This document shows, piece by piece, positions 511-19,788 of a DNA stretch of 20,000 nucleotides. Within the stretch, counting starts at the first letter, position 1. Each line of letters starts with the position of its first letter. Position numbers and translations under genes: made by a program. The DNA comes from an uncultured virus (IMG/VR IMGVR_UViG_2061766007_000468). Lineage: Duplodnaviria > Heunggongvirae > Uroviricota > Caudoviricetes. The notes beneath the pieces are model-generated. The model was not told where the DNA came from. It searched no databases and saw nothing but the letters and a program-made list of their open reading frames with translations. The stretch lies in IMG/VR virus record IMGVR_UViG_2061766007_000468. One strand, given 5' to 3'.

Positions 511-1114
511 GTATGTAATCGGCAATGCTTTTATACTGCTCAAGTGTGCCCCACGATCCCAGACGTGCGCACGTAAGTAAAAAATATTTTTTATGGTCTG
601 CGACGGTCTGGCCATGTTGGGACACTTCAGTCCCGTCGGAACCGTGCCAGTCAGTCGGCGCTGGCGGCACAAAAAAAGCCCCAGGTCNNNNNNNNNNNNN
701 NNNNNNNNNNNNNNNNNNNNNNNNNNNNNNNNNNNNNNNNNNNNNNNNNNNNNNNNNNNNNNNNNNNNNNNNNNNNNNNNNNNNNNNNNNNNNNNNNNNN
801 NNNNNNNNNNNNNNNNNNNNNNNNNNNNNNNNNNNNNNNNNNNNNNNNNNNNNNNNNNNNNNNNNNNNNNNNNNNNNNNNNNNNNNNNNNNNNNNNNNNN
901 NNNNNNNNNNNNNNNNNNNNNNNNNNNNNNNNNNNNNNNNNNNNNNNNNNNNNNNNNNNNNNNNNNNNNNNNNNNNNNNNNNNNNNNNNNNNNNNNNNNN
1001 NNNNNNNNNNNNNNNNNNNNNNNNNNNNNNNNNNNNNNNNNNNNNNNNNNNNNNNNNNNNNNNNNNNNNNNNNNNNNNNNNNNNNNNNNNNNNNNNNNNN
1101 NNNNNNNNAAAATA

Positions 1115-1444
1115 TTAGAAGTGGGGAAGGTCGGTAATGCGAGTAGGGCTGTTGACGTACTGCCAAGCTTGTGTCAAGGTACGTTCGAGAGCTTCCTTGT
1201 TGGAAGACAAGTATGCGGCATTGAATGGGATAGTCCGGAACAGATCCGGATGATGGTTGAAGTGAGCGACCACACGGCCATTTTCGGCCTTGACGACCAC
1301 GGAACCACTGGATACATCGATCAGTCCCATCTGGACAGCACGGTCGAACAGTTGGCGGAAGAGGATCTTCTGGTTATCGATACGGTTTTTTTGTCTACGG
1401 GCTTGGTCCTGGACGTACCAGGCGAGAGGGTCAGCGAAGTTCAT
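1115..1444 (-). CDS. Hypothetical protein (MNFADPLAWY...), allele or paralog of 1574-1918
   Basis: AAGGAG RBS before ATG at 1444; open frame conserved with 1574-1918 apart from an in-frame indel. Confidence 0.8.
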   Translation of the reverse strand: MNFADPLAWYVQDQARRQKNRIDNQKILFRQLFDRAVQMGLIDVSSGSVVVKAENGRVVAHFNHHPDLFRTIPFNAAYLSSNKEALERTLTQAWQYVNSPTRITDLPHF

Positions 1445-1485
1445 ATACAGCTCCTTATATGTATGGTGTTTATCAAAATTCCCCC

Positions 1486-1522
1486 AAAGAAGCACCAGTC
1501 TACCTATGGGTAAACTGGTGCT
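1486..1522 (-). terminator. Intrinsic terminator-like hairpin (duplicate at about 1961-1997)
   Basis: AGCACCAGT(C)TACC...GGTA(A)ACTGGTGCT stem followed by TCTTT on the minus strand. Confidence 0.55.
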
Positions 1523-1573
1523 ATAACCAGGGAGCNNNNNNNNNNGGCTTTCCAACCACGGAGAATAAAAATT

Positions 1574-1918
1574 TTATAAGTGAGGGATGTCGGTAATGTG
1601 AGTAGGGCTGTTGACGTACTGCAAAGCTTGGGTCAAAGTATTTTCGAGAGCGTCCTTGTGACTGGAGAGATAATACGCATTGAACGGAATAGTCTGGAAC
1701 AGATCCGGATGATGGTTGAAGTGTGCGACCACACGGCCAGGTTCGGCCTTGACGATTACGGTTTTTCGGCGACTCGGCAGAGTGGCGATTTCGATCAGAC
1801 CGTCGTGGACTGCGTCATCGAACAGTCGACGGAAGAGGATCTTCTGATTATCGATACGGTTTTGTTGTCTACGGGCCTGGTCATGGACGTACCAAGCGAT
1901 AGGGTCAGCGAAATTCAT
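1574..1918 (-). CDS. Hypothetical protein (MNFADPIAWY...)
   Basis: RBS AAGGAG, complete ORF, conserved with 1115-1444. Confidence 0.8.
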   Translation of the reverse strand: MNFADPIAWYVHDQARRQQNRIDNQKILFRRLFDDAVHDGLIEIATLPSRRKTVIVKAEPGRVVAHFNHHPDLFQTIPFNAYYLSSHKDALENTLTQALQYVNSPTHITDIPHL

Positions 1919-2101
1919 ATACAAGCTCCTTATATGTATGGTGTTTATCAGAATTCCCCAAAAGAAGCACCAGTCTACCTATGGGTAAACTGGTGCTGTA
2001 ACCANNNNNNNNNNNNNNNNNNNNNNNNNNNNNNNNNNNNNNNNNNNNNNNNNNNNNNNNNNNNNNNNNNNNNNNNNNNNNNNNNNNNNNNNNNNNNNNN
2101 N

Positions 2102-2562
2102 GCATCGAACTGGCCGGACTTGATGTACTGGATCGCATCGACGAGTTTCGTTCTGGCCAACTCAGTGGATTCATGCCTAATACGTACATCATTACCAGAT
2201 TCGGCAACGGTGAGGCAGTTTACCATCTCGTCAGCGTCTTCGTCATATGCATTGACATAGACATAGATTTCGTCTTGTCTATTGAGATATGACACAATAA
2301 CTTTGAAGTTGGTATAATCGTTATACCTCTTGTCCTTTACAGTGACCGTCAGCTCGGTTCTGTCTTCCTTGCGCATATTATTGTAATGGATGAGGATATC
2401 ACGATAGTTTGCGTTAATATGGTGCCAGAATTCTTCGAAGAAGGCTTTCTGCTTCTTCTCGGTATTTTCGAGTTTTTTGGTGGTTTTTTCGGTATCGGCT
2501 TCTACTGCGTTGAGCAGATCGCTGAGGTTCTGTACGATTTTGGTGACATTCTTGTTAGCCAT
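2102..2562 (-). CDS. Hypothetical protein with coiled-coil-like N-terminus (MANKNVTK...), 3' end in gap; allelic 5' end at 2646-2675
   Basis: AAAGGAG RBS, repeat copy upstream at 2611. Confidence 0.8.
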
Positions 2563-2791
2563 GATATGATCTCCTTTGGTTGTGGGTGCCCTTAGTATAA
2601 TTATGTAGCGCAGTCCCGTCTGGGCTGTGCCAGTCNNNNNNNNNNGACGATTTTGGTAATATTCTTGTTAGCCATGATATGATCTCCTTGGTTGTGTGTG
2701 CCCTTAGTATAATTGTGTAGCGCAGTCCCGTCTGGGCTGTGCCAGTCCCTGGTTTTGCTGGGCGANNNNNNNNNNAGTTTCCGGAGGCCAG

Positions 2792-2824
2792 AAAAAAGCC
2801 GAGACGGAGATCATCCGTCCCGGC
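2792..2824 (-). terminator. Intrinsic terminator downstream of tRNA-like RNA
   Basis: GCCG-GACGGA/TCCGTC-CGGC stem followed by TTTTTT on the minus strand. Confidence 0.7.
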
Positions 2825-2845
2825 CAACCAGGGAGCTATAGAATT

Positions 2846-2965
2846 TAGTAGTCTGAACCGGAGTCGAACCAGTAACTACGGATCGGGTTCCCAGACAGAT
2901 GTTGCTAGCTAGTCTATCTGGCTGATTTTTCCGTCCGTCGCATTTACCAATTAAGCTATCAGACC
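2846..2965 (-). ncRNA. tRNA-like RNA with a 51-nt structured segment replacing the anticodon loop (interrupted tRNA or tRNA mimic)
   Basis: Acceptor GGTCTGA/TCAGACT, TA-GCTT-AATTGGTAA-ATGC D arm, ACGGA/TCCGT anticodon stem, ACTGG-TTCGACT-CCGGT T arm, 3' A-CTA; no assignable anticodon. Confidence 0.75.
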
Positions 2966-3113
2966 GGGTAAAATATAATAAAGGGAAGCCGGTGAACGAA
3001 CCTCCTGCATGGTTAAAAAATATTTACCGACGGTGGCGGTGTGTTGTGGCTGGGTGTGTTAGTCCCAGGCCACCGTCGGCTGCCCTCAGGGAGTAGGGCA
3101 AATNNNNNNNNNN

Positions 3114-3437
3114 CTGGAGGAGCATGAGGAAGCACTTGACCGCCATGTCGTAGGGGTCACGGCACGTCTTGCAGAACTTCCAAGAGTCGACGCCTATACG
3201 GTCGCCCATTCTGGAGTCCTTGCACAGATCGAACTCGAATCCTTCGCACGTGCCATTGAGGCAGATGGTATCGCCGAGCGTGACGGACGAGATCAGTCCG
3301 GCCTTGATTTCCCCAGACATGACAGCGGAATTGAAGGTAGCTCTGACCTTTTCCATCTGGTCGAGCATTTCCTTGGGGAATTCGACGGTTTCGTTTATTT
3401 TCTTGAGGTTCGGTTTCCAGTAGTTAGTGTAACCCAT
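3114..3437 (-). CDS. Conserved phage/plasmid hypothetical protein (MGYTxYW...FCKTxRxPYD type), 3' end in gap
   Basis: Motifs MGYTNYW and WKFCKTCRDPYDMAV recalled from an uncharacterised mobile-element family; RBS and repeat upstream. Confidence 0.75.
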
Positions 3438-3512
3438 GATTAAATCTCCTTTTGGTTGTGTGTGTGGAAAGAATAACCCGGCAGGGCAGTCCCGCCGGGC
3501 GGCGGCCAGTTC

Positions 3513-3920
3513 CTAGAACTCTTGGATCTTGTCGTCGACCGTCATCAGAGCTTCGAAGTCGGTACCACCGTCCAGATCGGCGATGTCGTCGATATGGTTC
3601 TGGAAGAATTTTTTAAGCCAGCTGGCTTCACGTGCCGTGAGAACCAGGGTGCTCTTCGGAACATCGTGCTCGACGATACTCAGGCAGAAGTCGCCGAACT
3701 GGTAGCCGTTGAGCTTGACGCAGTCGGCAGCATTGATATGCTCGGTATGGGCATGGTTAGGCCATTTGTTGAATTCGTCGATCTCTTCGTTCATACGATC
3801 GGCGACGAACTTGGCCGCTGCCTTCTTGGACGTGAACAAAGGCGGATAGGACAATGTGTCCGTGCCCATGCAGACACGCTTCATTCCGGACACTGTGTAA
3901 AATTTTCTTTTCTTAGCCAT
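3513..3920 (-). CDS. Hypothetical protein, 135 aa
   Basis: Complete ORF between repeat copies 3964 and 3487, RBS AACCAAGGAG. Confidence 0.85.
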   Translation of the reverse strand: MAKKRKFYTVSGMKRVCMGTDTLSYPPLFTSKKAAAKFVADRMNEEIDEFNKWPNHAHTEHINAADCVKLNGYQFGDFCLSIVEHDVPKSTLVLTAREASWLKKFFQNHIDDIADLDGGTDFEALMTVDDKIQEF

Positions 3921-3989
3921 AATGAATCTCCTTGGTTTGTGCGGAAAAAATAACCCGGCAGGGCAGTCCCGCCGGGTGGCTGCCAGTTC

Positions 3990-4757: not shown

Positions 4758-4850
4758 GATGAATCTCCTTGGTTGAGGGTTGTATAAAGCAAATAATTAT
4801 TCGGAGCAGTCCCGCCCGGTCTTTGCCAGTCGCCGGAAGCGGCTGGATAT

Positions 4851-4882
4851 AAAAACTGGGTCGGAACGTGTCCGACCCAGTT
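4851..4882 (-). terminator. Intrinsic terminator after GP88-like allele
   Basis: 12-bp stem AACTGGGTCGGA/TCCGACCCAGTT running into a T-tract on the minus strand. Confidence 0.75.
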
Positions 4883-4906
4883 GAACCAGGGAGTCAAAAA
4901 TTATTT

Positions 4907-4966: not shown

Positions 4967-4976
4967 NNNNNNNNNN

Positions 4977-5533: not shown

Positions 5534-5611
5534 GATAGTCTCCTTGGTTGGTTTGGTTGTGTGTGGAAAGAATAACCCGGCAGGGCAGTCCCGCCGGGTG
5601 TCGGCCAGAAT

Positions 5612-6019: not shown

Positions 6020-6110
6020 GGTACGTCCTTGGTTGAGGTTTCTATCAAACAAATAATTATTCGGAGCAGTCCCGCCCGGTCTTTGCCAGTCACCCGATGG
6101 GGTAGGCAAT

Positions 6111-6143
6111 AAAAAAACTGGGCCGGAACATGTCCGACCCAGT
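6111..6143 (-). terminator. Intrinsic terminator after GP88-like gene
   Basis: ACTGGG(C)CGGA/TCCG(A)CCCAGT stem followed by T-run on the minus strand. Confidence 0.7.
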
Positions 6144-6166: not shown

Positions 6167-7074
6167 TTAGTGATCGTGGCAAGCGATAACCTTGACCTTG
6201 CTGTCGATACAGAGGCGGCAGTTCTCGCAGTGCGCCTTGGGATCTGGGTTGAGCTTTGCTTTGCCAGTCTTACCGACTACCAGGTAGGCAGGGCAGTAGC
6301 ACTTGGTAGGCAAGCACATATCCACGCCGTCATCGAAGACGAACGCCTTGACGTTCGGCAGCGAAGAATATTTTTTGTAAGCTTCGACGCCTACGTCGTG
6401 CCAGACGGAGAACAGGATCGTGAAGTTGGGCGGCACGTCGCCGTTTTCGAGGAATTTTCCCACGATATCGTACATTTTCGTGTACAGGTAGAACTTGGTA
6501 TCGGGGAACTGGATAGCGAGGCGGCACCACATAGCCATCTGGCGTTCGTTTTCGAGTTCGCCAGACTGGTTGATACGAGCGATCTTGATGTGGCGACGTT
6601 CGATCTGCTTCGCAAGGTCGGCCTCGACCTTCTTGAGTTCGTGACGGAGNNNNNNNNNNCTTCTTGAGTTCGTGGCGGAGACCCCACGTGTTGATCGCCT
6701 GGGACTGGACGACGCCAGGGAAGCGGTAGGAAGCTCTGACGTAGCAGCTCTTCTTGCACGCCGAGCAGTTCTTGCACGTACCCTTGATGTCTTCGAGGAG
6801 TCCGCTGAGACCCTTGTAGGTGTAGTCGCCGAGCAGCGTCGACCANNNNNNNNNNAGCTGCACAGTTCTTGCACGTGCCCTTGATATCGGCGAGCAGTCC
6901 GTTGAGACCCTTGTAGGTGTAGTCGCCGAGCAGCGTAGACCACGTGGCGATCTTGCCCACCTTGATGTTGCCAGCGAGGCTGAAGCCGTAGGTGTGCTTC
7001 TCGCGGTCGAACGGCTGCACGGTATCGAGGCCGCTAGGTGTGACGGTTTTGGTGTCTTCATGAAACAGTGCCAT
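6167..7074 (-). CDS. Phage GP88-like Cys-rich (radical-SAM-like) protein, assembled as overlapping allelic pieces
   Basis: GNIKVG, CKNCSACKKSCY, RINQSGE, FYLYTK, CPAY and CENCRLC motifs match my recollection of the gene product 88 family; another allelic fragment at 7141-7290. Confidence 0.7.
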
Positions 7075-7335
7075 AGTAAACTCCTTTTGGTTGGCTTGTG
7101 TAGAAATTATATCAGAAAGGGGCAGTCCCGNNNNNNNNNNAGCGCAGTTCTTGCACGTGCCCTTGATGTCTTCCAGGAGTCCGCTGAGACCCTTGTAGGT
7201 GTAGTCGCCGAGCAGCGTCGACCAGGTGGCGATACGGCCTACCTTGATGTTGCCAGCGAGGCTGAAGCCGTAGGTGTGCTTCTCGCGGTCNNNNNNNNNN
7301 CCAGATTTCTGTCAGTCGCCTCGTAGGGACGCCAG

Positions 7336-7953: not shown

Positions 7954-8030
7954 GATTGATTCTCCTTGGTTTGTGTGATAAAAATAAAAGAAGGCAGCAG
8001 CCCCGTGAGGCTGCCGCCAGTCCTTACGTC

Positions 8031-8588: not shown

Positions 8589-8656
8589 GATAGAATCTCC
8601 TTGGTTTGTGTGATGAAAATAAAAGACCGGAGCAGTCCCGGAGGACTGCCGCCAGT

Positions 8657-8857
8657 CTACTGGATGTTGTGCTGGGTTCTGAACTGTTCTTGCATTTTGC
8701 GGACTTCGTCCCAGGGGACGACACGCAGCGGAGTCAAGTACTCGACCAGAATCCAGTCGCCGCCCTGGAGCAGCGATCGCTTGTAGGTCTTGGTCATACC
8801 TTCTGCCTCGCACTCGATCCAGACGCGCTGCTCTCCGTTAGCGAGCTTTTCGGACAG
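8657..8857 (-). CDS. 3' part of hypothetical protein (...RTQHNIQ)
   Basis: Open frame from gap to a stop adjoining repeat 8633; may or may not continue 8868-9086. Confidence 0.65.
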   Translation of the reverse strand: MSEKLANGEQRVWIECEAEGMTKTYKRSLLQGGDWILVEYLTPLRVVPWDEVRKMQEQFRTQHNIQ

Positions 8858-9086: not shown

Positions 9087-9156
9087 ATTAACTCCTTGGT
9101 TTGGGTGTATAGGGAAAATGACCCGGCGAGGCAGTCCCGCCGGGTAATCGTCAGTC

Positions 9157-9590: not shown

Positions 9591-9657
9591 CGTTAATCTC
9601 CTTGGTTTGTGTAGAAGAAATGACCCGGCAGGGCAGCCCCGCCGGGTGTTGGTCAGT

Positions 9658-10056
9658 TTAGGCAAGTGTATCTAGCGTGTCTTTCCACTCATTCCACACG
9701 CGGTTAGCTTGCTGATTAAGATAATCAACCTCGGACTGAACTCCGCTAAGCTCAATGTCGGTAGCATCAGCCTCTCCGTCCTCATAGTAGGGGAATAGCC
9801 AGTCAATGTCAAAGTCGCACTGCATGGCGGAGTTGGCTGGCTGGTAGGCTATCTTACCACAGATACGCCACGACTTGTCAGCGTTGGGAGTTCCCTCTGG
9901 TGCTTCGTCAAAGCCGTCAAGCCAGCCTACAACGATACACAGTTTGCGACCGCCTTCCGTTGTATTGATAAGGTGATGACAGCAACCGCACTTGTTCCGA
10001 TTGAGAAAATCGATGTCATCTTTAAGGTCTGCAAGGGTAATAATTTCTTTTGCCAT
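9658..10056 (-). CDS. Hypothetical acidic protein, 132 aa
   Basis: ORF between repeat copies 10106 and 9634. Confidence 0.85.
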   Translation of the reverse strand: MAKEIITLADLKDDIDFLNRNKCGCCHHLINTTEGGRKLCIVVGWLDGFDEAPEGTPNADKSWRICGKIAYQPANSAMQCDFDIDWLFPYYEDGEADATDIELSGVQSEVDYLNQQANRVWNEWKDTLDTLA

Positions 10057-10139
10057 ACGGGCTCCTTGGTTGATTGGTTTGTGTAGAAGAAATGACCCGG
10101 CAGGGCAGTCCCGCCGGGAATGAATCAGTTTTCCGCCGC

Positions 10140-11334: not shown

Positions 11335-11394
11335 GTTATCTCCTTGGTTTGTATAAATAAAATAACCCGGCGAGGCAGTCCCGCCGGGTAAGCG

Positions 11395-12233
11395 TCAGTC
11401 TTCGACGTGGTGAACTTCCCAGTATTCTCTGGCGTAGTCGTCAGAATCGTCACGAGTGAACGGCGAGCCGTCGATCGGAGTGCCGGAGAAGCCAGTAGAA
11501 CATTCAGAAATAAATTCTTCTACGTCCTTGGCGCACGTCGTCTGGTAGAACTCGGCGACCTTGGTTCGACCGATATACTCGGCAATCTGTTCGTTCTTGA
11601 TAGTGATACCGCTGTCCCAGATTTCGTCGACAAATTCATCCAGAAGCTCTGCGCCGTACCACTTGGCGACCATAGCGTCACAGTCTGCCTGAGCCAGTTG
11701 CAGCTCACGCTTTTTCTTGCCGGTATAGAAGTAACCGTCCACCCAGCGTTCGGCGATAGCCTCGACGATGTCGCAGCGAGCTTCCATTCGTTCTGGATGG
11801 TCGTCACGCTCGGTTTCGTCGTCGGTTTCCATCAGAGGGCCGAAGTCCAGATTCTCCTGAAGCATACGGATCATTACCGATTCCTTCAGGTCGCGTTCCT
11901 TCTGGTTTTCTTGGCTGGGATAGACGGCATTGTCGTCGTCTTCNNNNNNNNNNTCTTGGTTCGACCGATGTACTCGGCGATACGCTCGTTCTTGATAGTG
12001 ATACCGCTGTCCCAGATTTCGTCGACAAATTCATCNNNNNNNNNNGACAGATTCCTTCAAGGCACGTTCCTTCTGGTTTTCTTGGCTGGGATAGACGGCA
12101 TTGTCGTCGTCTTCAGCCAGTTCAGGATTGTCGTTCAGGACATCTTCTTCCGTCGCCTCGTAGCCTTGGGCACAGAGAAGGCTGGTCAGNNNNNNNNNNT
12201 ACAGGACTTGATGAGTTGTTCTCTTGAAAGCAT
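11395..12233 (-). CDS. Acidic hypothetical protein (MLSREQLIKS...WEVHHVED), about 220 aa, in overlapping allelic pieces; second 5' allele at 12773-12979
   Basis: Pieces overlap at DDDNAVYPSQENQKER...MIRMLQ; the stop TGA overlaps the repeat box at 11396. Confidence 0.75.
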
Positions 12234-12478: not shown

Positions 12479-12547
12479 ATCAACTCCTTGGTTTGGGTGT
12501 ATAGGGAAAATAACCCGGCAGGGCAGCCCCGCCGGGTCGAGACCAGT

Positions 12548-12761
12548 CTAGTTAATGGTCAGAGTCTTTAACCGGAGCCAGTATTCCGGGCCGAAACAGT
12601 CCATAGAGAAGTAGTCGGCACCGTTGTTCAGAAGCTCCTTGGCTTCTTCACGGTCAGGCTCTTCGTCGTCCACGTTGATGACGTTAATCTCGTCAGCGTA
12701 GTCGATAGCGGCGATTGCCTTCTTCGCCAGTTCTTCCTGAGCCTTCTTGCGGTCGGCGAAC
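12548..12761 (-). CDS. 3' part of hypothetical protein (...WLRLKTLTIN); allelic end at 13049-13123
   Basis: Open frame ending next to repeat 12524. Confidence 0.75.
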
Positions 12762-13192
12762 ANNNNNNNNNNTTGAAGCATACGGATCATTACCGCTTCC
12801 TTCAGGGCGCGTTCCTTCTGGTTTTCTTGGCTGGGATAGACGGCAGTGTCGTCGTCTTCAGCCAGTTCCGGATTGTCGTTCAGTACATCTTCTTCCGTCG
12901 CCTCGTAGCCTTGGGCACAGAGAAGGCTGGTCAGATGGTTTTCTTGACAGGACTTGATGAGTTGTTCTCTTGAAAGCATTATTAATTCTCCTTTGGGTTG
13001 TATAAAGAAAATAACCCGGCGGCGCAGTCCCGCCGGGTCGAGACCAGTCTAGTTAATGGTCAGAGTCTTTAATCGGAGCCAGTATTCCGGGCCGAAACAG
13101 TCCATAGAGAAGTAGTCGGCACCNNNNNNNNNNGGTTGCGGTTGTATAAATAAAATAACCCGGCGAGGCAGTCCCGCCGGGTTGTCGCCAGT

Positions 13193-13450
13193 CTAATTGA
13201 TGGCGATCTTGACGACCTTCAGCGCAACGATCTCCCCAGCTTCGTCGTGGTGGTACGTACCGTCGGGGAAGTTGCTCTTGTCGTCGAAGTCGATGTCGGC
13301 TTCCGGGAAGGTGTCCTTCAGAATATCGACGGCGCAAGCGTCGGCGGCTGCGCTGTCGTTGAAGTCTTCGGTGATGACGTCCACCGAACCGTCGTCCGGA
13401 TGAAAGTGTGCGCCAGAAAGAATGAAACGTTCGATAGTTGCTGTTGCCAT
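13193..13450 (-). CDS. Acidic hypothetical protein, 85 aa
   Basis: ORF between repeat copies 13498 and 13169. Confidence 0.85.
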   Translation of the reverse strand: MATATIERFILSGAHFHPDDGSVDVITEDFNDSAAADACAVDILKDTFPEADIDFDDKSNFPDGTYHHDEAGEIVALKVVKIAIN

Positions 13451-13561
13451 TTTAAATCTCCTTGATTGGGTTGTATAAATAAAATAATCCGGCGAGGCAG
13501 CCCCGCCGGGTTGTCGCCAGTCTTATTCTGCGTCACCGTCTTCGTTGATGTNNNNNNNNNN

Positions 13562-13663: not shown

Positions 13664-13730
13664 AATTAAACTCCTTGGTTTGTGTAGGGAAAATAAAAGA
13701 ACGGTGCAGTCCCGGAGGACTGCCGCCAGT

Positions 13731-14062
13731 CTACTGGATGTTTGGTGCAGCGACGCCTTCGTCGGCGTAGCCGGAATCAATCATATCGATATCCAGCTGG
13801 ATACCGAAAAACTCGCCGTCGTCCAGCTCGGTCATGCCNNNNNNNNNNNNNNNNNNNNNNNNNNCCAGTGCGGTCATGCCTTCTGGCACGTCTTCATAGA
13901 AGGGTTCCACTTCGTTCGGTGCGATGAAGATAGATCCGGTCATACGGTTGTGAATCAGGTGAGCGCCAATCTCGTGGAGCTTGGCCTGAAGCTNNNNNNN
14001 NNNTCCTGGACGGCCTTGATATCTTCGTCAGAAATTTTTGTGTACCAGTTTGTATTTTCCAT
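13731..14062 (-). CDS. Allele of the MENTNWYTK protein with alternative C-terminus NIQ
   Basis: Near-identical to 14986-15279 except the last residues; internal gaps. Confidence 0.75.
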
Positions 14063-14131
14063 AATGAATCTCCTTGGTTTGTGTAGGGAAAATAACCCGG
14101 CAGGGCAGTCCCGCCGGGTAATAGCCAGTTC

Positions 14132-14527: not shown

Positions 14528-14623
14528 AATTAAACTCCTTGGTTGATTGGTTGTGTAAGGGAAATGACCCGGCAGGGCAGTCCCGTAGACCGGGTGTCAG
14601 TCGTTTTGGAGGCTGCCAGCACG

Positions 14624-14958: not shown

Positions 14959-14985
14959 NNNNNNNNNNCTTATAGACTTTCATAG

Positions 14986-15279: not shown

Positions 15280-15340
15280 AAATAACTCCTTGGTTTGTGT
15301 AGAATGAATAATCCGGCGAGGCAGTCCCGCCAGTCCAGTG

Positions 15341-15979
15341 CTATTCTACTGGTCTCGTGGCTACCGTGATTTCGTCCACATGAACCCACGACTGCCTGTG
15401 TGTATCGTGGTACTTCACAATGGCTTTGGCTATAATGTTCTCGCCGATGGCAGCCGATACGATGAACATGCCGTCCGTGTCGAACTGATTAAATTTGCAC
15501 TTACTCACTAAGCAGAACTTGTCGAGTTCGGCACGAATGTGGCCTTCGACCTTGTCCATGAGAGCTTTCTTCTCGGCGTCCGATCCGACAATATGCTCCA
15601 TGCTGTCGCACAGTTCGGCCTTGATCGTCTCGTGGGCTTGCTGGATCTGCTTGAGCGTGTCGAGGTAGGTCTGGCACTGGCGAATCACGATCTGGACGAC
15701 GTTCTCGGCCTTCTCGCTGTCGGTCTCGCCAGTCGGCTTGATCTGGAACTGGGCAGTGTCGTACTTGTTCGTGCCAGCTTGGGTCATGAGACTGGCGAAA
15801 ATGTGGTCAGGGAACGGGAACAGTTCGACGCTGAACTCGCGATCTTCGAGCTTGACCTTGAACTGGATGCCTTCTGCCGTGGTGTCGGTCTCGCCGAGCT
15901 TGACGCAGCGAGAGGTTTCTGGAAAGCGGAACTCGGTCGCGACTATGTAGGCAAGATACTGGTCTGTTGTAAATTTCAT
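15341..15979 (-). CDS. Hypothetical protein (MKFTTDQY...), about 212 aa; diverged fragment at 16505-16607
   Basis: ORF between repeat copies 16022 and 15322. Confidence 0.85.
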   Translation of the reverse strand: MKFTTDQYLAYIVATEFRFPETSRCVKLGETDTTAEGIQFKVKLEDREFSVELFPFPDHIFASLMTQAGTNKYDTAQFQIKPTGETDSEKAENVVQIVIRQCQTYLDTLKQIQQAHETIKAELCDSMEHIVGSDAEKKALMDKVEGHIRAELDKFCLVSKCKFNQFDTDGMFIVSAAIGENIIAKAIVKYHDTHRQSWVHVDEITVATRPVE

Positions 15980-16066
15980 GTTCAACTCCTTGGTTGGTAT
16001 AAATAAAATAATCCGGCGAGGCAGCCCCGCCAGTCACGAGCCAGTAGCACGGTGGCTTACAGACGT

Positions 16067-16097
16067 AAAAGGGGAACTGGCCGGAGCCAGCTCCCTT
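16067..16097 (-). terminator. Intrinsic terminator
   Basis: Imperfect AAGGGGAACTGGC-CGGA-GCCAGCTCCCTT stem with T-run on the minus strand. Confidence 0.65.
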
Positions 16098-16123
16098 GGA
16101 GCTATCTTCATGAAGAATACAGA

Positions 16124-16494
16124 TTAAGATTTTTTGTTTAAGAAGTCCTTAAACACCGTTCCGGTGATGTTCCATGTGTGGTAATGGTTTTCGCAGTCCG
16201 GAGTCTTTACCGTATAGCCGAAAGCGAAGTCAGACTCCTTGAGGTCGAGTTCCATATCGACATCCGCATCCGGATCTTGGCCGAAGAAATCTTCCATGAC
16301 GGATTCGTAGTTACGGTTGACCCAGTCAACCGCGTCTTGCTTGCTGGTAAACGTCGCAGAACATGTGTCCAGCTTATTATCCCAGCCGTTGAACTCGGAG
16401 CTGCTGACCGTCCAGATAGTCAGATCCGTAGGCTCTTCTTGTACGATTTCCAGCTGGATGGTGTCAGAGAGCAGATTGCTCCACGGCGTATCCA
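16124..16494 (-). CDS. 3' part of acidic hypothetical protein (not in ORF track)
   Basis: Manual translation DTPWSNLLSD...FTSKQDAVDWVNRNY...VFKDFLNKKS*, followed by a terminator. Confidence 0.75.
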
Positions 16495-17111
16495 NNNNNN
16501 NNNNTGCCAGCTTGGGTCAAGATGCTGACGTGGATGTGGTCAGGGAACGGGAACAGTCCGACTTTGAACTCGCGGCCTTCAAGAGTGACCTTGAACTCGA
16601 TGCCTTCNNNNNNNNNNNNNNNNNNNNNNNNNNNNNNNNNNNNNNNNNNNNNNNNNNNNNNNNNNNNNNNNNNNNNNNNNNNNNNNNNNNNNNNNNNNNN
16701 NNNNNNNNNNNNNNNNNNNNNNNNNNNNNNNNNNNNNNNNNNNNNNNNNNNNNNNNNNNNNNNNNNNNNNNNNNNNNNNNNNNNNNNNNNNNNNNNNNNN
16801 NNNNNNNNNNNNNNNNNNNNNNNNNNNNNNNNNNNNNNNNNNNNNNNNNNNNNNNNNNNNNNNNNNNNNNNNNNNNNNNNNNNNNNNNNNNNNNNNNNNN
16901 NNNNNNNNNNNNNNNNNNNNNNNNNNNNNNNNNNNNNNNNNNNNNNNNNNNNNNNNNNNNNNNNNNNNNNNNNNNNNNNNNNNNNNNNNNNNNNNNNNNN
17001 NNNNNNNNNNNNNNNNNNNNNNNNNNNNNNNNNNNNNNNNNNNNNNNNNNNNNNNNNNNNNNNNNNNNNNNNNNNNNNNNNNNNNNNNNNNNNNNNNNNN
17101 NNNNNNNNNNN

Positions 17112-17201
17112 AGTTGCATCGCGGTATTCGACGCCGGATATTTCGCCAGCACGGTCGTCCGTACCGCCACGCATACGATAGGTCTTAATTACTTCTGTCA
17201 T
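17112..17201 (-). CDS. 5' end of hypothetical protein (MTEVIKTYRM...)
   Basis: RBS and repeat 17249 upstream; rest in gap. Confidence 0.65.
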
Positions 17202-17289
17202 TTTAAACTCCTTGGTTGAGGTTGTATAAAGAAAATAACCCAGTAGGGCAGCCCCGCCAGATCTGCGCCAGTCGGTAGAGTAGTGAGGC

Positions 17290-17321
17290 AAAATAAAGGG
17301 GATCCATCGCTGGATTCCCTT
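17290..17321 (-). terminator. Intrinsic terminator
   Basis: AAGGGGATCCA-TCGC-TGGATTCCCTT followed by TATTTT on the minus strand. Confidence 0.7.
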
Positions 17322-17340
17322 GTTCAACCAGGAGTAAAAA

Positions 17341-17520
17341 TTATTTTTTCGGACGTCTGCCGCGTTTGAGCGTGACCTTTAGCGGCTGAACCTTCTTATC
17401 CGTCTTTGGCGGTCTTCCGCGTTTCGTCGGCTGCGTCAGGAGACTGGCCTTGTGCTGCTTGAGGGCGGCAGCCTTGTCCTTGGTGGACAGTTCGTTCCAT
17501 TCGGCGTCGAGCTGTGCGGC
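17341..17520 (-). CDS. 3' part of protein with AT-hook-like motifs (not in ORF track)
   Basis: Manual translation ...QPTKRGRPPKTDKKVQPLKVTLKRGRRPKK*. Confidence 0.7.
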   Translation of the reverse strand, partial: AAQLDAEWNELSTKDKAAALKQHKASLLTQPTKRGRPPKTDKKVQPLKVTLKRGRRPKK

Positions 17521-17564
17521 NNNNNNNNNNGTGGGTCAGCCCCGCTGGGTCACGTCCAGTCCGG

Positions 17565-17951
17565 CTATCGGATCTCGTAGCCTACGCCCTCTACGTCGAA
17601 GAGCGGAATACAGATGCTTTCGTGGTTGTCGTCGTCGTCCAAATCGGCATAATCGACGATTTCTAACGAAATTCTGCTCGTCATGTATTCGAAGATGTGG
17701 TCGAAGTTGTCCGGCCCGTGCGGCCACTTGGGATCTTCAACCTTCTTCATGACATCGTTCACGATGTCGAGGGCCGCCCAAAGCCGTGCGACTGGAACCT
17801 TCAGCATTTCAAGGTCAGCGTCGGTCTTTGGGTAGTCGTAAAGGTCGAACATGGCGGTAAGGGCCTTTGCAAGCGATTCCGCGAAAGATGTAAAGTCGTT
17901 GTCGCCGATACGGACGACGAGATAGGGTGCGTTTTTCGGCTTGTTCGCCAT
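17565..17951 (-). CDS. Hypothetical protein (MANKPKNAPY...); allelic 5' end at 18652-18765 (+)
   Basis: ATG at 17951, stop next to repeat 17537; the allele shows an AACCAAGGAG RBS. Confidence 0.8.
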   Translation of the reverse strand: MANKPKNAPYLVVRIGDNDFTSFAESLAKALTAMFDLYDYPKTDADLEMLKVPVARLWAALDIVNDVMKKVEDPKWPHGPDNFDHIFEYMTSRISLEIVDYADLDDDDNHESICIPLFDVEGVGYEIR

Positions 17952-17969
17952 ATTAAACTNNNNNNNNNN

Positions 17970-18185
17970 CACGACGAACGCCGCGTCCGTGTCACCGTGA
18001 CCAGAACCGACGACAATATGGGCATGTATGATACTGCCCGCGCCAATCCGACGGTCAAGTACGATAATAGCCTGTGGTGCGCCGACAAGGCAGACGCCCG
18101 CAACCTCGCCGAAACGGTGTCGCTCATGTGCAACCACATGCTCACCGCCGAATTCTACAATTTCAGCCTCAACGAACTCAACTAA
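17970..18185 (+). CDS. 3' part of the MKNNPHF protein (inverted contig)
   Basis: Same peptide DERRVRVTVTRTDDNMGMYDTARANPTVKYDNS as 18776-19090 (-). Confidence 0.75.
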   Translation, partial: HDERRVRVTVTRTDDNMGMYDTARANPTVKYDNSLWCADKADARNLAETVSLMCNHMLTAEFYNFSLNELN

Positions 18186-18194
18186 GGAGCAGCC

Positions 18195-18398
18195 ATGAAG
18201 CTTTCAGATCTTTCCGCAGAACAGAAACTGGAACTCAAGCAGAACTTGCTTGAAAAGAAAAACGAAGCCAAGGGAGAAGGAACTTCCTACGGCGAGCTTG
18301 CTGACGCAGACCAGCTCGTGACCGACGCAGAACTCGAAGCCGAATACGGTAACACCGAATTTACTGGCGACGACTTCTGCTGCACGGCTGGCAAGTAA
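18195..18398 (+). CDS. Small acidic hypothetical protein, 67 aa
   Basis: AAGGAG RBS; stop abuts repeat box ACTG at 18398. Confidence 0.8.
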   Translation: MKLSDLSAEQKLELKQNLLEKKNEAKGEGTSYGELADADQLVTDAELEAEYGNTEFTGDDFCCTAGK

Positions 18399-18466
18399 CT
18401 GGAAGTGACCCAGCGGGGCTGACCCACTGGGTTATTTTTATTTTGCACTTATTCAAGGAGCTTGAT

Positions 18467-18634
18467 ATGGCCGAATTTGAAAAATCTTGCTATTACTGCA
18501 AGCATTTCCACAAGCCGAACCGCGTGAAGTGGTGTGGCGAGGAAAAGAAGAACTCGTGCATAGGTGACTGCTGCGACAACTTCGAATGGTGTTCGATGGT
18601 CAAGTCGTGGAAACCCAAGAACAAGCGAAAATAG
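18467..18634 (+). CDS. Small Cys-rich protein (possible metal-binding)
   Basis: CAAGGAG RBS, MAEFEKSCYYCKHF...WC...SCIGDCCDNFEWC. Confidence 0.7.
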   Translation: MAEFEKSCYYCKHFHKPNRVKWCGEEKKNSCIGDCCDNFEWCSMVKSWKPKNKRK

Positions 18635-18775
18635 CAACCAAGGAGTTTAATATGGCGAACAAGCCGAAAAACGCACCCTATCTCGTCGTCCGTCTCGGCG
18701 ACAATGACTTCACAACTTTCGCGGAATCGCTTGCAAAGGCCCTTACCGCCATGTTCGACCTTTACNNNNNNNNNN

Positions 18776-19090
18776 CGAGTTGTCGTACTTGACCGTAGGG
18801 TTGGCGCGAGCAGTATCATACATGCCCATATTGTCATCGGTTCTGGTCACGGTGACACGGACGCGGCGTTCGTCGGTCGTCGCGCTGATGTTCACGTGCA
18901 GCTCGACCGTAGGCCCAGGCTGGCGGTTCTTGCGGTTCACGTAGTTCAGACGGAACAGCAGTACTATCGTAGCGTCACTGACGACTTCCAGACTGATGAA
19001 GTGACTGTTCTTGCCCAGATTGTTACGCAACATCTTGGACTTGTCAAAGTAATCGTAGACTGGCGTGGTGAAATGCGGATTATTCTTCAT
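18776..19090 (-). CDS. Hypothetical protein MKNNPHF..., 5' part
   Basis: RBS and repeat 19140 upstream. Confidence 0.8.
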
Positions 19091-19166
19091 GGATATCTCC
19101 TTTGGTTGAAATGTTCGAAATAAGAATAAGCGGCGAGGTCAGCCCCGCCGCCTACGGTCAAGTTCG

Positions 19167-19289
19167 CTAGTCAAATAAGCTATCGGCGTAATCGGATGTA
19201 GCAGTAGCGTCAACATCCAATGTCTTGAACCCATTCTGACCAGCGATACCATACGGAATCAACACGACGCACCGTGCGGTAAACTTTGA
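19167..19289 (-). CDS. 3' end of hypothetical protein (...KFTARCVVLIPYGIAGQNGFKTLDVDATATSDYADSLFD)
   Basis: This frame stops immediately before repeat 19140, as other cassette genes do. Confidence 0.55.
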   Translation of the reverse strand, partial: SKFTARCVVLIPYGIAGQNGFKTLDVDATATSDYADSLFD

Positions 19290-19788
19290 NNNNNNNNNNN
19301 NNNNNNNNNNNNNNNNNNNNNNNNNNNNNNNNNNNNNNNNNNNNNNNNNNNNNNNNNNNNNNNNNNNNNNNNNNNNNNNNNNNNNNNNNNNNNNNNNNNN
19401 NNNNNNNNNNNNNNNNNNNNNNNNNNNNNNNNNNNNNNNNNNNNNNNNNNNNNNNNNNNNNNNNNNNNNNNNNNNNNNNNNNNNNNNNNNNNNNNNNNNN
19501 NNNNNNNNNNNNNNNNNNNNNNNNNNNNNNNNNNNNNNNNNNNNNNNNNNNNNNNNNNNNNNNNNNNNNNNNNNNNNNNNNNNNNNNNNNNNNNNNNNNN
19601 NNNNNNNNNNNNNNNNNNNNNNNNNNNNNNNNNNNNNNNNNNNNNNNNNNNNNNNNNNNNNNNNNNNNNNNNNNNNNNNNNNNNNNNNNNNNNNNNNNNN
19701 NNNNNNNNNNNNNNNNNNNNNNNNNCATGCGCCCGCGGGGCCGACCTCGCGGGCTATTTCTTAAGTGAACCTCAATCAAGGAGTTGTT

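What the first reader, a model, noticed from the sequence alone, without database searches (positions are those of the whole stretch)
628..19755. Array of small-gene cassettes delimited by about 29 copies of a two-box element with invariant 20-bp spacing
Seen: nearly every gene or gene pair is preceded by ACTG(G/A)-variable-CGGG(A/G)CTG, a T-rich stretch and AACCAAGGAG. In all 25 copies where both boxes are readable (one has CAGA for CAGT) the boxes start exactly 20 bp apart, e.g. 3487/3507, 4807/4827, 8633/8653, 14578/14598, 17249/17269, while the bases between them vary freely. Known: neither sigma70 hexamers nor integron attC RYYYAAC/GTTRRRY cores match. The closest precedent I know is the promoter-stem-loop (PeSL) cassettes that shuffle genes in T4-type phages. 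Inference: a same-face (about two helical turns) binding site for an element-encoded factor. It could be a dedicated promoter or activator site, or the recombination site of an undescribed integron-like cassette system, or both.
Basis: partly seen in the sequence, partly recalled or inferred. Interest (0 to 1): 0.9.

Follow-up and report, generated by a model that had tools for sequence, protein, structure and literature searches.

The report
Phage terminator-promoter modules with novel promoter
The repeats are real: each looks like a combined stop-and-restart signal for transcription placed before nearly every small gene of a giant T4-like rumen phage, built on a promoter motif not described before, and related phages swap genes at these joints.

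Summary
The window holds 28 copies of CGGGRCTG against about 1 expected. In 26 of them ACTGR lies exactly 16 nt upstream, against 0.07 expected.

The element is longer than reported. Its full form is GACTGGC-N10-CGGGRCTGCC-N9-TATT-N5-TAT[R]CAA, then a leader, AAGGAG and ATG.

The window is a relative of a 348-kb T4-type jumbo phage, IMG/VR contig G001. That phage has 72 copies, all on one strand, inside one 61-kb block of about 120 small, mostly unknown genes. The likely host is Fibrobacter.

Best reading: each copy is a composite terminator-promoter module of the PeSL/PmSL kind known from T4-like phages. Two things differ from the described forms:
- The promoter is non-sigma70 and probably needs a dedicated factor. 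The relative encodes two sigma-70-family proteins and uses three promoter classes.
- The terminator hairpin is folded around box 2, in three different registers.

Homology between the window and the relative breaks inside the elements (8 of 13 free ends, p=6e-6). No integrase or attC cores were found, so the integron-like reading is not supported.

No transcription start could be mapped, and the recognising factor is unknown.

The same promoter heads a 4-5-gene anti-restriction module in Fibrobacter chromosomal islands.

The parts
601..652 (-). two-box element (box 1 to position 35); atypical downstream part, followed by a conserved non-coding stretch
   Evidence: homologous to G001 266.0 and 270.9 kb
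2584..2635 (-). two-box element; box 2 forms the 3' arm of the hairpin; TATACT downstream
2696..2747 (-). two-box element, near-duplicate of 2584-2635 (assembly variant or paralogue)
3460..3511 (-). two-box element with embedded terminator hairpin; homology to G001 ends at its 5' edge (3510)
3937..3988 (-). two-box element with embedded terminator hairpin
4780..4831 (-). two-box element with weak hairpin, preceded by a separate canonical terminator at 4854-4882
   Evidence: homology to G001 ends at 4778
5559..5610 (-). two-box element, box 1 TCTGG (1 mismatch), embedded hairpin
6040..6091 (-). two-box element with weak hairpin, preceded by a separate canonical terminator at 6117-6143
   Evidence: homology to G001 ends at 6040
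7096..7130 (-). box 2 plus TATAAT-containing downstream part; box 1 lost in an N run
7971..8022 (-). two-box element; box 2 (GGGGCTGC) pairs as 3' arm with GCAGCC
8606..8657 (-). two-box element; box 2 (GGACTGC) pairs as 3' arm with GCAGTCC, compensatory to 7971-8022; homology to G001 ends at 8657
9105..9156 (-). two-box element with embedded hairpin
9607..9658 (-). two-box element with embedded hairpin
10079..10130 (-). two-box element with embedded hairpin
11349..11400 (-). two-box element; the stop codon TGA of the upstream gene lies inside box 1; homology to G001 ends at 11361
12497..12548 (-). two-box element with embedded hairpin (12 pairs)
12998..13049 (-). two-box element; homology to G001 ends at 13051
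13142..13193 (-). two-box element with embedded hairpin
13471..13522 (-). two-box element with embedded hairpin
13680..13731 (-). two-box element; box 2 as 3' arm
14079..14130 (-). two-box element with embedded hairpin
14551..14602 (-). two-box element; 5' arm of the hairpin shifted 4 nt upstream; homology to G001 ends at 14585 (first base of box 2)
15295..15346 (-). box 2 with displaced box 1 (ACTGGACTGG abutting); the regular 20-bp spacing is lost
15995..16046 (-). two-box element, preceded by a separate terminator-like hairpin at 16072-16095
17222..17273 (-). two-box element
17531..17561 (-). two-box element cut by an N run downstream
18397..18448 (+). the only plus-strand copy; mirror of 17531-17561 on an inverted scaffold piece
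19113..19164 (-). two-box element, box 1 ACTTG (1 mismatch); stem GCGGCG/CGCCGC is compensatory to the common CCGGCG/CGCCGG; homology to G001 ends at 19124

Best explanation
Each element is a composite terminator-promoter module marking the border between small-gene cassettes. It sits in the hyperplastic, probably host-takeover, region of a T4-type jumbo phage whose host is most likely Fibrobacter.

Anatomy, read on the coding strand, with position 1 = the C of CGGGRCTG:
- Box 1, GACTGGC, at -17..-11.
- Box 2, CGGGRCTGCC, at 1..10.
- TATT at 20..23.
- TAT[R]CAA at 29..35.
- Then a CA-rich leader, AAGGAG and ATG.

Inferred mechanism:
1. A GC-rich hairpin built around box 2, followed by the T-rich TATT tract, ends or insulates the transcript of the upstream cassette.
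2. The same about 50 bp are a promoter that lacks a -35 hexamer. TATT acts as the -10-like element and transcription starts at the purine at position 32 (or 30). This puts box 2 at about -31..-22 and box 1 at about -48..-42. The two boxes are direct repeats 20 bp apart, on one DNA face.
3. Recognition needs a dedicated factor, not the host primary sigma alone. This could be one of the two phage sigma-70-family proteins, or an activator working in the manner of T4 MotA or lambda cII.
4. Because about 50 bp recur before every gene, the modules serve as patches of homology at which cassettes are exchanged, inserted or lost by general recombination.

Shown here: the motif, its rigid spacing, its strand and region restriction, the hairpin co-variation, the breakpoints and the absence of a recombinase.

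Inferred: promoter activity, the start site, the factor and termination.
For: Motif and distribution:
- The window has 26 two-box copies against 0.07 expected.
- The 348-kb relative G001 has 63 exact copies plus 9 with one mismatch. All are on the plus strand, the exact ones between 232.2 and 293.2 kb, and none is on the other strand.
- The block holds about 120 small genes. Of the 119 scanned, 14 have any PHROG match, among them anti-restriction and methyltransferase families.

Positions that were not used to select the copies are nonetheless conserved in 105 non-redundant copies from three lineages:
- C1 in 105 of 105.
- C9 in 101.
- A21 and T22 in 103 each.
- Position 32 is a purine in 101.

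The element is separable from a terminator:
- In the second lineage (L024, L045, L056) and in the Fibrobacter islands it follows a complete terminator T-run by about 13 nt.
- A strong embedded hairpin (at most -10 kcal/mol) is found in 74 of 105 copies, and 5 of these have an upstream T-run.
- A weak hairpin is found in 31 copies, and 16 of these have an upstream T-run. Fisher p=8e-7.

The boxes stay constant while the hairpin changes register. Box 2 is in the 5' arm in 37 copies, in the loop in 36, in the 3' arm in 29, and unpaired in 3.

Hairpin support:
- The outer stem columns show 5-6 pair types.
- 68% of cells are paired, against 37-50% when the partner columns are slid.
- Terminator-like sites number 52 against 18.5 +/- 4.3 in shuffles, and the top-ranked ones lie on the elements.

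Start site:
- The distance from position 32 to the start codon has a median of 23 nt and a minimum of 16, so the start cannot lie later if the ribosome-binding site is to be kept.
- In 4 of 8 long leaders a hairpin begins exactly at position 32.

It is not the host sigma-A promoter type:
- 14 Fibrobacter SRP-RNA genes have cTTGACA-N17-cTAtATT upstream.
- G001 has a TTGACA-N17-TATATT class of its own, mostly outside the block.
- In the elements, the best match to TTGACA at the -35 place is at most 3 of 6 in 97 of 105 copies.

Three promoter classes and two phage sigmas:
- A third motif, GATAAACT, precedes structural and replication genes.
- G001 encodes two sigma-70-family proteins, each with regions 2 and 4.
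- No MotA C-terminal domain, no RNA polymerase beta-type subunit and no T7-type polymerase were found.
- No PHROG named for late sigma, gp33 or AsiA turned up among 125 ORFs.

Shuffling:
- 8 of 13 free ends of window-versus-G001 alignments lie in element spans, which cover 9.7% of the window (p=6e-6).
- One upstream gene, terminator and element is followed by three different genes, in window copies 4780-4831 and 6040-6091 and in G001.
Against: - No transcription start or end was mapped. The RNA runs that hold the sequence are kept only as short assembled contigs, which cannot show ends.
- The -10-like element is incomplete under either alignment. TATT read as -12..-9 lacks a conserved T at -7. 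Read as -10..-7, as two hybrid copies with TTGACA abutting box 2 suggest, it lacks A at -11.
- The T tract after the hairpin is often interrupted (for example TATTCCCTTT), so termination may be weak.
- The same promoter heads genes in Fibrobacter chromosomal islands that carry no close homologue of phage sigma 1. Only host sigmas of 25-34% identity are found there. This argues against a phage sigma as the sole reader and leaves the factor open.
- The window itself is only 20 kb and shows no factor gene.
- The joints seen in RNA contigs at the elements may be assembly artefacts at repeats.
Confidence: 0.68

Rival explanations
1. The boxes are operators for a repressor or shut-off factor, not for an activator or sigma. 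The promoter would be a weak host-type one (TATT plus start region), and a phage or host protein bound to the two direct repeats would switch the whole block off together.
For: Direct repeats 20 bp apart flank the place of the -35 hexamer. Two hybrid copies in G001 carry a full TTGACA-N17-TATATT around box 2. The island copies would then work without any phage factor.
Against: 97 of 105 copies have at most 3 of 6 matches to TTGACA, and there is no extended -10. Without help these would be very poor promoters for genes that carry consensus ribosome-binding sites. The host-type class in the same genome is close to consensus.
Confidence: 0.1
2. The element acts in RNA. It would be a conserved 3'-end or intercistronic signal, such as a processing site, an antitermination site or the binding site of an RNA-binding protein, and the hairpin would be its core.
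For: The hairpin co-varies. Box 2 often sits in the loop. G001 encodes RNA repair and RNA-binding proteins.
Against: Box 2 is in the loop, the 5' arm or the 3' arm in roughly equal shares and is unpaired in some copies. An RNA motif would keep one structure. Where a separate terminator precedes the element, it would be absent from terminated transcripts. The spacing to TATT and TAT[R]CAA is rigid regardless of the fold. No Rfam family matched at E up to 1.
Confidence: 0.07
3. The elements are plain intrinsic terminators whose sequence is conserved by recent copying, with no promoter function.
For: 74 of 105 copies have a strong hairpin followed by a T-rich tract.
Against: The boxes are conserved across three lineages with different flanks, GC content and ribosome-binding sites, while the stems vary. 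Copies without a hairpin lie just after a real terminator. Box 1 lies outside the hairpin in most copies. The downstream TAT[R]CAA box has no role in termination.
Confidence: 0.05
4. The elements are recombination sites of an integron-like, site-specific cassette system.
For: Homology breakpoints fall in the elements. In the Fibrobacter islands a serine recombinase gene is the last gene of the module.
Against: No tyrosine or serine recombinase was found in the 348-kb relative, nor among the 22 window proteins scanned. The two attC cores occur together in 0 of 105 copies. The breakpoints are spread over the element (5' edge, spacer, T tract, leader) and do not share one crossover point. The phage has a UvsX-type recombinase for general recombination.
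Confidence: 0.04
5. The elements are sigma-54-type promoters: box 1 (CTGGCAC) would be the -24 element and the GC at positions -1/1 the -12 element.
For: The GG of box 1 and the GC at -1/1 are 12 nt apart, as in TGGCAC-N5-TTGC. Several copies read CTGGCAC.
Against: The second G of the GG is G in only 70 of 105 copies. The T's of TTGC are absent. The strongest conservation (GGGRCTG, TATT, TAT[R]CAA) would lie downstream of -12, where sigma-54 promoters are not conserved. In arrays this tight there is no room for upstream activator sites.
Confidence: 0.03

Closest known systems
PeSL (promoter-early stem-loop) cassettes of T4-like phages RB49/phi1, PST/T4 and nt-1/KVP40 (PMC2839356: listing and abstract seen; PMC4122927: parts 1-2 of 3 read)
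   Same: A short composite of a stem-loop and a promoter, ending in a Shine-Dalgarno sequence and start codon. It is repeated between small, mostly unknown genes of the hyperplastic regions of T4-type myoviruses, and sits at the borders of insertions, deletions and replacements between related phages.
   Different: PeSL promoters are sigma70-like (TTGACA or TTTACW, N17, TATAAT-like) and the stem-loop lies just upstream of the promoter. Here there is no -35 hexamer. Two other boxes 20 bp apart replace it, and the hairpin is folded around box 2, inside the promoter. [quoted passage not shown]
PmSL (promoter-middle stem-loop) of Vibrio phage nt-1, and T4 middle promoters (MotA/AsiA sigma appropriation) (PMC4122927 read; T4 mechanism recalled; PMC2988021 seen in a listing only)
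   Same: A promoter with a -10-like box (TATTAT in nt-1, TATT here). The -35 hexamer is replaced by a phage-specific box centred near -30, and the promoter is combined with a stem-loop in a T4-type phage.
   Different: The Mot box TGCTT is absent. A search of G001 with the MotA C-terminal domain family gave only a 12-bit match with a stop inside it. There are two boxes, not one. The relative encodes two full sigma-70-family proteins, which T4 does not (recalled).
Lambda cII-dependent promoters (direct repeats TTGC-N6-TTGC flanking the -35 region); recalled, not tested
   Same: Direct repeats on one DNA face bracket the place of a missing or poor -35 element.
   Different: The repeat period is 20 bp, not 10, and the sequence is unrelated. 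No cII homologue was sought.
Sigma cascades of large phages such as Bacillus phage SPO1 (gp28, gp33/34); recalled
   Same: Host-type early promoters plus phage-sigma-specific later classes. G001 has three promoter classes and two sigma genes.
   Different: Standard sigma geometry (-35, 16-18 bp, -10) does not fit either box. No assignment of a sigma to a class was possible.

Membership tests
PeSL / PmSL composite terminator-promoter cassettes of T4-type phages | Found in a T4-type myovirus | tested here: met
   The relative G001 has a gp23-like capsid protein (28-32% identity to T4-type phages). It also has portal, prohead protease, sheath, baseplate wedge, UvsX, gp32-like SSB, clamp loader and gp46/47-like proteins. 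The window shares 72-93% identical stretches with G001.
PeSL / PmSL composite terminator-promoter cassettes of T4-type phages | Repeated in intergenic spaces of a hyperplastic region of small, mostly unknown genes, ending in a Shine-Dalgarno sequence and start codon | tested here: met
   72 copies lie in one 61-kb block. 14 of 119 block ORFs have any PHROG match. AAGGAG is present in 79 of 91 copies.
PeSL / PmSL composite terminator-promoter cassettes of T4-type phages | Stem-loop located just upstream of the promoter | tested here: not met
   The hairpin overlaps box 2, inside the promoter-like element, in 102 of 105 copies. A separate upstream terminator is seen only in a minority of copies.
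PeSL / PmSL composite terminator-promoter cassettes of T4-type phages | Sigma70-like -35 and -10 boxes (PeSL), or Mot box TGCTT plus a -10 box (PmSL) | tested here: not met
   The best match to TTGACA is at most 3 of 6 in 97 of 105 copies. The consensus has no TGCTT. Only a TATT -10-like box is shared.
PeSL / PmSL composite terminator-promoter cassettes of T4-type phages | Sits at borders of insertions, deletions and replacements between related phages | tested here: met
   8 of 13 free alignment ends lie in elements that cover 9.7% of the window (p=6e-6).
PeSL / PmSL composite terminator-promoter cassettes of T4-type phages | Mini-circle excision between tandem copies | not testable with these tools
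   Only assembled contigs of the runs were available.
Integron (attC sites plus IntI) | Tyrosine recombinase IntI next to the array | tested here: not met
   PF00589 is absent from G001 while the control genomes matched. None was found among 22 window proteins. The window is only part of the genome.
Integron (attC sites plus IntI) | attC with inverse cores RYYYAAC and GTTRRRY | tested here: not met
   Both cores occur together in 0 of 105 copies.
Integron (attC sites plus IntI) | Cassettes lack promoters and are read from a common Pc | tested here: inconclusive
   Every cassette has its own promoter-like element and ribosome-binding site, but no start site was mapped.
Intrinsic (rho-independent) terminator | GC-rich hairpin directly followed by a T tract | tested here: met
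   74 of 105 copies fold at -10 kcal/mol or below. The consensus scan gives 52 sites against 18.5 in shuffles. The T tract is often interrupted.
Sigma-54 promoter | Invariant GG at -24 and GC at -12, in TGGCAC-N5-TTGC | tested here: not met
   The spacing fits, but the second G is present in only 70 of 105 copies and TTGC is replaced by CGGC.
Known RNA families (Rfam 15) | Match to a covariance model | tested here: not met
   The only match in the window at E up to 1 is a tRNA at 2849-2965.

The most novel reading that the evidence does not exclude
The two-box promoter is a private transcription channel shared by a jumbo phage and chromosomal mobile islands of its host genus. Small clusters of the motif lie in Fibrobacter genomes: 4 copies in G002, 5 in G026, 5 in G029 and 2-3 in G081. 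In the four island loci examined, a 4-5-gene module drawn from MHYG-like, MADR-like, SpoVG-domain, DUF1281-type, ArdC-like and resolvase genes is headed gene by gene by this same promoter. The MADR-like and ArdC-like genes are shared by all four, and several module genes are homologues of genes in the phage block.

Either the islands listen in on the phage's sigma or activator, switching on their anti-restriction and recombinase genes when the phage infects, as satellite P4 does with P2 late promoters. Or both phage and islands use an undescribed host or element-encoded factor dedicated to anti-defence genes of incoming DNA.
Probability: 0.25. Interest if true: 0.75.

Novelty: new variant of a known kind. 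Interest (0 to 1): 0.52.

Why it matters
- It extends the PeSL idea of regulatory cassettes that also drive gene shuffling. The extension is to a very distant T4-type jumbo phage of an uncultured-phage host group (Fibrobacter, a key rumen fibre degrader), and to a promoter class that is not sigma70-like.
- It gives a 50-bp signature with which the accessory, probably anti-defence, gene pool of these phages can be found and delimited in metagenomes.
- It offers a clean test case for how a phage with two sigma genes and three promoter classes programmes its host.
- The occurrence of the same promoter in chromosomal islands raises a testable question about cross-talk between phage and island.

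Tried and rejected
- No whole genome is held for the window.
- ARAGORN in default mode found no tRNA. With the intron option it did.
- My first motif scan had the wrong spacer, N12, and found nothing.
- There was no DNA match in the collection of sequenced phages.
- The first viral-contig scan, which included a TYATT clause, found nothing.
- The metagenome scan gave 58 loci, of which 54 were single chance hits.
- RNA evidence: 4 metatranscriptome runs hold 5-7% of the sampled words, as short contigs of depth 2-9. They cannot show starts, ends or strand. Joints and loose ends at the elements (for example 11399/11400, 13511, 9644, and 15331 joined to 9152) may be k-mer assembly artefacts at repeats. 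I do not count them as evidence.
- The T7-type RNA polymerase search was negative, but the controls were silent too, so it is uninformative.
- The MotA C-domain search gave only a 12-bit match with a stop inside it.
- Ribosomal RNA promoters of Fibrobacter could not be read because the rRNA contigs end at the gene. SRP RNA genes were used instead.
- Recurrent single motif hits in many Fibrobacter genomes lie inside conserved coding regions and are chance.
- A 116-aa island protein shared with a gene next to phage sigma 1 (33% identity) has no Pfam family and only a PHROG of unknown function, and gives no hint of DNA binding.
- Genome G060 carries a sigma 1 homologue (55% identity) but no motif cluster, so no sigma-motif co-variation test was possible.
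- Look-ups in earlier scan notes by place found nothing.

Full report

Yes. On the minus strand, which is the coding strand of almost all genes here, the pattern ACTGR-N11-CGGGRCTG occurs 26 times with at most one mismatch. Of these, 24 are exact, 25 lie on the minus strand and 1 on the plus strand. Dinucleotide-preserving shuffles give 0.07. CGGGRCTG alone occurs 28 times against 1.12 expected.

Two box-2 copies have no scored box 1. One has box 1 hidden in an N run (7123-7130). In the other, ACTGG is displaced (15322-15329).

One caveat applies. The window is a scaffold with 34 N runs and 1774 N in all, and several neighbouring pieces are near-duplicates. One piece is inverted, which explains the single plus-strand copy. 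Independent copies are therefore fewer than 28.

**2. What the element looks like**

I aligned 105 non-redundant copies without gaps: 72 from a related phage, 24 from the window and 11 from a second lineage, 107 in all before two duplicates were removed. This gives a rigid module of about 52 bp. Position 1 is the C of CGGGRCTG.

| Part | Position | Conservation |
|---|---|---|
| Box 1, GACTGGC | -17..-11 | G at -17 in 83 of 105 |
| Box 2, CGGGRCTGCC | 1..10 | C1 in 105 of 105, C9 in 101 |
| TATT | 20..23 | A21 and T22 in 103 each |
| TAT[R]CAA | 29..35 | position 32 a purine in 101 |

C1, C9, TATT and TAT[R]CAA were not used to pick the copies, so their conservation is independent.

A CA-rich leader, AAGGAG (79 of 91 copies) and the start codon follow. 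The distance from position 32 to the start codon has a median of 23 nt and a minimum of 16. A stop-codon triplet lies within 9 nt of, or inside, box 1 in 69 of 92 copies. The packing is very tight.

**3. Where the window comes from**

The window proteins are almost all without family. Of 22 scanned, one matched Pfam GP88 and three had PHROG matches of unknown function.

Pattern scans of public collections gave the following:
- One viral contig with many copies: IMGVR_UViG_3300037512_000782, 348,092 bp, handle G001, estimated 91% complete.
- Four metagenome contigs of a second lineage with lower GC content (L016, L024, L045, L056).

G001 shares stretches of 72-93% identity with the window, in broadly the same order.

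G001 is a distant T4-type myovirus. Its major capsid protein is 28-32% identical to gp23-type proteins. PHROG matches include portal, prohead protease, sheath, baseplate wedge, UvsX-like recombinase, gp32-like SSB, clamp loader, family B polymerase and gp46/47-like nuclease.

In G001 the element occurs 63 times exactly, plus 9 times with one mismatch in box 1. Every copy is on the plus strand, the exact ones all lie between 232.2 and 293.2 kb, and none is on the other strand. This 61-kb block holds about 120 small genes. Only 14 of the 119 scanned have any PHROG match, among them an ArdC-type anti-restriction protein, a DNA methyltransferase, an FtsK-like protein and a DNA repair protein. It looks like a hyperplastic, host-takeover region.

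**4. The host**

Several lines point to Fibrobacter:
- Runs that hold the window are ruminant gut metagenomes from 13 studies.
- A scan of one genome per prokaryote species found multiple copies only in a Fibrobacter MAG.
- Among 151 Fibrobacteraceae genomes, one MAG (G061) contains the G001 phage itself. It has 17 elements on one contig and sigma 1 at 100% identity on another.
- The phage's host-like promoters (TTGACA-N17-TATATT) match the consensus I read upstream of 14 Fibrobacter SRP-RNA genes, cTTGACA-N17-cTAtATT.
- A recent paper on pig-gut jumbo phages assigns one phage family to Fibrobacterota. I saw one passage; the words promoter and sigma do not occur in its main text.

**5. Terminator function**

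Most copies carry a GC-rich hairpin around box 2, followed by the T-rich TATT tract:
- The mean folding energy of positions -13..19 is -13.7 kcal/mol, against -9.3 for shuffles.
- The consensus scan finds 52 terminator-like sites in the window, against 18.5 +/- 4.3 in shuffles. The best-ranked ones are the elements.
- The stems co-vary. Examples are CCCGG/CCGGG, CCCAG/CTGGG, GATCGG/CCGATC and GCGGCG/CGCCGC. The outer columns show 5-6 pair types. 68% of cells are paired, against 37-50% with slid partners.

The hairpin uses three registers. Box 2 is in the 5' arm in 37 copies, in the loop in 36, in the 3' arm in 29, and unpaired in 3. The 3'-arm form includes a compensatory pair: GCAGTCC/GGACTGC against GCAGCC/GGCTGC. 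What is selected is therefore 'a hairpin ending just before the T tract', while the boxes are conserved whatever their pairing.

Embedded hairpins and separate upstream terminators are complementary:

| Embedded hairpin | Copies | With an upstream T-run |
|---|---|---|
| Strong (at most -10 kcal/mol) | 74 | 5 |
| Weak | 31 | 16 |

Fisher p=8e-7.

**6. Promoter function (inferred)**

Several observations point to a promoter:
- In the second lineage, in the left part of the G001 block and in the Fibrobacter islands, the element lies about 13 nt after a complete terminator and before a gene. That is the place of a promoter, not of a terminator.
- The spacing from box 1 to TAT[R]CAA never changes, while the leader after it varies from 16 to 130 nt.
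- The shortest leaders require a start at or before about position 33 if the ribosome-binding site is to be in the mRNA.
- In 4 of 8 long leaders a stable hairpin begins exactly at position 32, as expected for a 5'-terminal stabiliser.

With +1 at position 32, TATT is at -12..-9, box 2 at -31..-22 and box 1 at -48..-42.

Two hybrid copies in G001 have TTGACA directly abutting box 2 and TATATT at positions 18-23. These suggest the alternative alignment, TATT at -10..-7 with a start near position 30. Under either alignment there is no -35 hexamer: the best match to TTGACA is at most 3 of 6 in 97 of 105 copies. Under either alignment the -10 is incomplete. The host primary sigma alone is therefore unlikely to suffice.

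**7. Which factor?**

G001 uses three promoter-like classes:
1. A host-type class, mostly outside the block.
2. The two-box class.
3. GATAAACT, found 25-35 nt before many structural and replication genes.

G001 encodes two sigma-70-family proteins with regions 2 and 4, of 270 and 246 aa. Both belong to phrog_351, and their best NCBIfam matches (RpoD, RpoS and SigB/F/G types) fall far below the cut-offs.

I found the following absent:
- An RNA polymerase beta-type subunit.
- A T7-type polymerase (the controls were silent too).
- A MotA C-terminal domain.
- Any PHROG named for gp55, gp33 or AsiA among 125 ORFs.

Three classes against a host sigma plus two phage sigmas is a tidy fit, but it is only parsimony.

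Against a phage sigma as the sole reader stands the island evidence. The same promoter heads a conserved module in chromosomal islands of at least four Fibrobacter species:

| Genome | Copies | Context |
|---|---|---|
| G002 | 4 | Island with two tyrosine integrases, next to housekeeping genes |
| G026 | 5 | Next to an AlgX-like gene, as in G002 |
| G029 | 5 | Island locus |
| G081 | 2-3 | On a 1.15-Mb contig, next to TniQ/TniB-type transposition genes |

The module draws on MHYG-like, MADR-like, SpoVG-domain, DUF1281-type, ArdC-like and resolvase genes. Its make-up differs between genomes. These genomes have only host sigmas at 25-34% identity to sigma 1. The module genes are homologues of genes in the phage block, at 28-58% identity. 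The factor is therefore open. It could be a phage sigma, a shared activator or a host factor.

**8. Recombination**

Alignments of the window against G001 of 120 nt or more have 13 ends that are not forced by an N run. Eight of them lie inside element spans, which cover 9.7% of the window (binomial p=6e-6).

The ends are spread over the element:
- The 5' edge of box 1 (3510, 8657, 13051).
- The first base of box 2 (14585).
- The T tract (11361, 19124).
- The leader (4778, 6040).

This fits general recombination within a patch of homology and not a fixed crossover.

The same upstream gene, terminator and element is followed by three different genes, in two window copies and in G001.

G001 has a UvsX-like recombinase and no tyrosine or serine recombinase. 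The two attC cores occur together in 0 of 105 copies.

**9. Comparison with what is known**

The closest described elements are the PeSLs of T4-like phages and the PmSL variant of Vibrio phage nt-1. For PMC4122927 I read parts 1-2 of 3. For PMC2839356 I saw the listing and abstract.

Shared features:
- A composite of stem-loop and promoter, ending in a Shine-Dalgarno sequence and start codon.
- Location in hyperplastic regions of T4-type phages.
- Association with indels and replacements.

Differences:
- The promoter is neither sigma70-like nor Mot-box based.
- It has two boxes, 20 bp apart.
- The hairpin lies inside the promoter and not upstream of it.
- It is shared with host chromosomal islands.

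I therefore rate it a new variant of a known kind, not a member in the strict sense.

No Rfam family matches. No paper in the library holds two of the three motif strings. My searches on Fibrobacter phages and Fibrobacter promoters turned up no description of this motif.

That is not independent support, but it means the scan has seen this kind before.

**10. What remains open**

- No start or end of any RNA was mapped. The RNA runs are available only as short contigs.
- The factor is unknown.
- Termination efficiency is unknown.
- The order of pieces in the window scaffold is not reliable. Only within-piece junctions were used for the breakpoint count.
- Supplementary files of the papers were not consulted.

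Noticed in passing
window 2849-2965 (-): A tRNA-Phe(GAA) gene of 117-118 nt with a 44-nt intron in the anticodon loop. Rfam tRNA scores 43.8 bits. ARAGORN finds it only with the intron option. The related phage G001 encodes an RtcB-type ligase, a tRNA-His guanylyltransferase-like protein and a CCA-adding enzyme.
   Followed up: partly
window 175-354 and 365-540 (near-duplicates); promoter-like sites at 294-323 and 481-510 (+): A conserved non-coding stretch with the best host-type promoter match in the window (TTGACA-18-CATAAT). It points on the plus strand into the atypical element at 601-652. The adjoining stretch is conserved in G001 near 270.8-271.0 kb. It may be a small or antisense RNA.
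   Followed up: no
G001 (L132-L149), whole contig: Two further promoter-like classes. One is a host-type class, TTGACA-N17-TATATT, often preceded by tttGC. The relaxed scan gave 77 sites against 14-32 in shuffles. The other is GATAAACT (often aaCTGATAAACTg), found 25-35 nt before many structural and replication genes, with 50 sites. This is probably the late class, and it differs from T4's TATAAATA.
   Followed up: partly
G002:C84 13.5-17.6 kb (L271); G026:C2 (L288 8.4-12.1 kb); G029:C110 (L289 7.0-10.3 kb); G081:C8 (L290 8.0-11.3 kb): Fibrobacter chromosomal islands carry a conserved module of MHYG-like, MADR-like, SpoVG-domain, ArdC-like (ArdcN plus metallopeptidase) and resolvase genes. Each gene has its own terminator and two-box promoter. 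In G081 the module lies next to TniQ/TniB-type transposition genes. In G002 it lies in an island with two tyrosine integrases.
   Followed up: partly
G001 244,450 and 247,949 (+): Two hybrid promoters in which a perfect TTGACA abuts box 2 and TATATT follows 17 bp later. They are either dual-mode promoters or evolutionary intermediates between the host-type and the two-box class.
   Followed up: no
window 6167-7290 (-) and 3-132: Several overlapping assembly variants of a GP88-family gene (PF17338, phrog_1392) are joined by N10 runs. G001 has two paralogues, at 246.2-247.0 and 262.1-262.9 kb.
   Followed up: no
G001 25,808-26,968 (+): A transposase (phrog_506, E 2e-117) lies inside the jumbo phage genome. 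Homing or HNH endonuclease genes lie near 18.1-18.9 kb and 157.3-158.0 kb.
   Followed up: no
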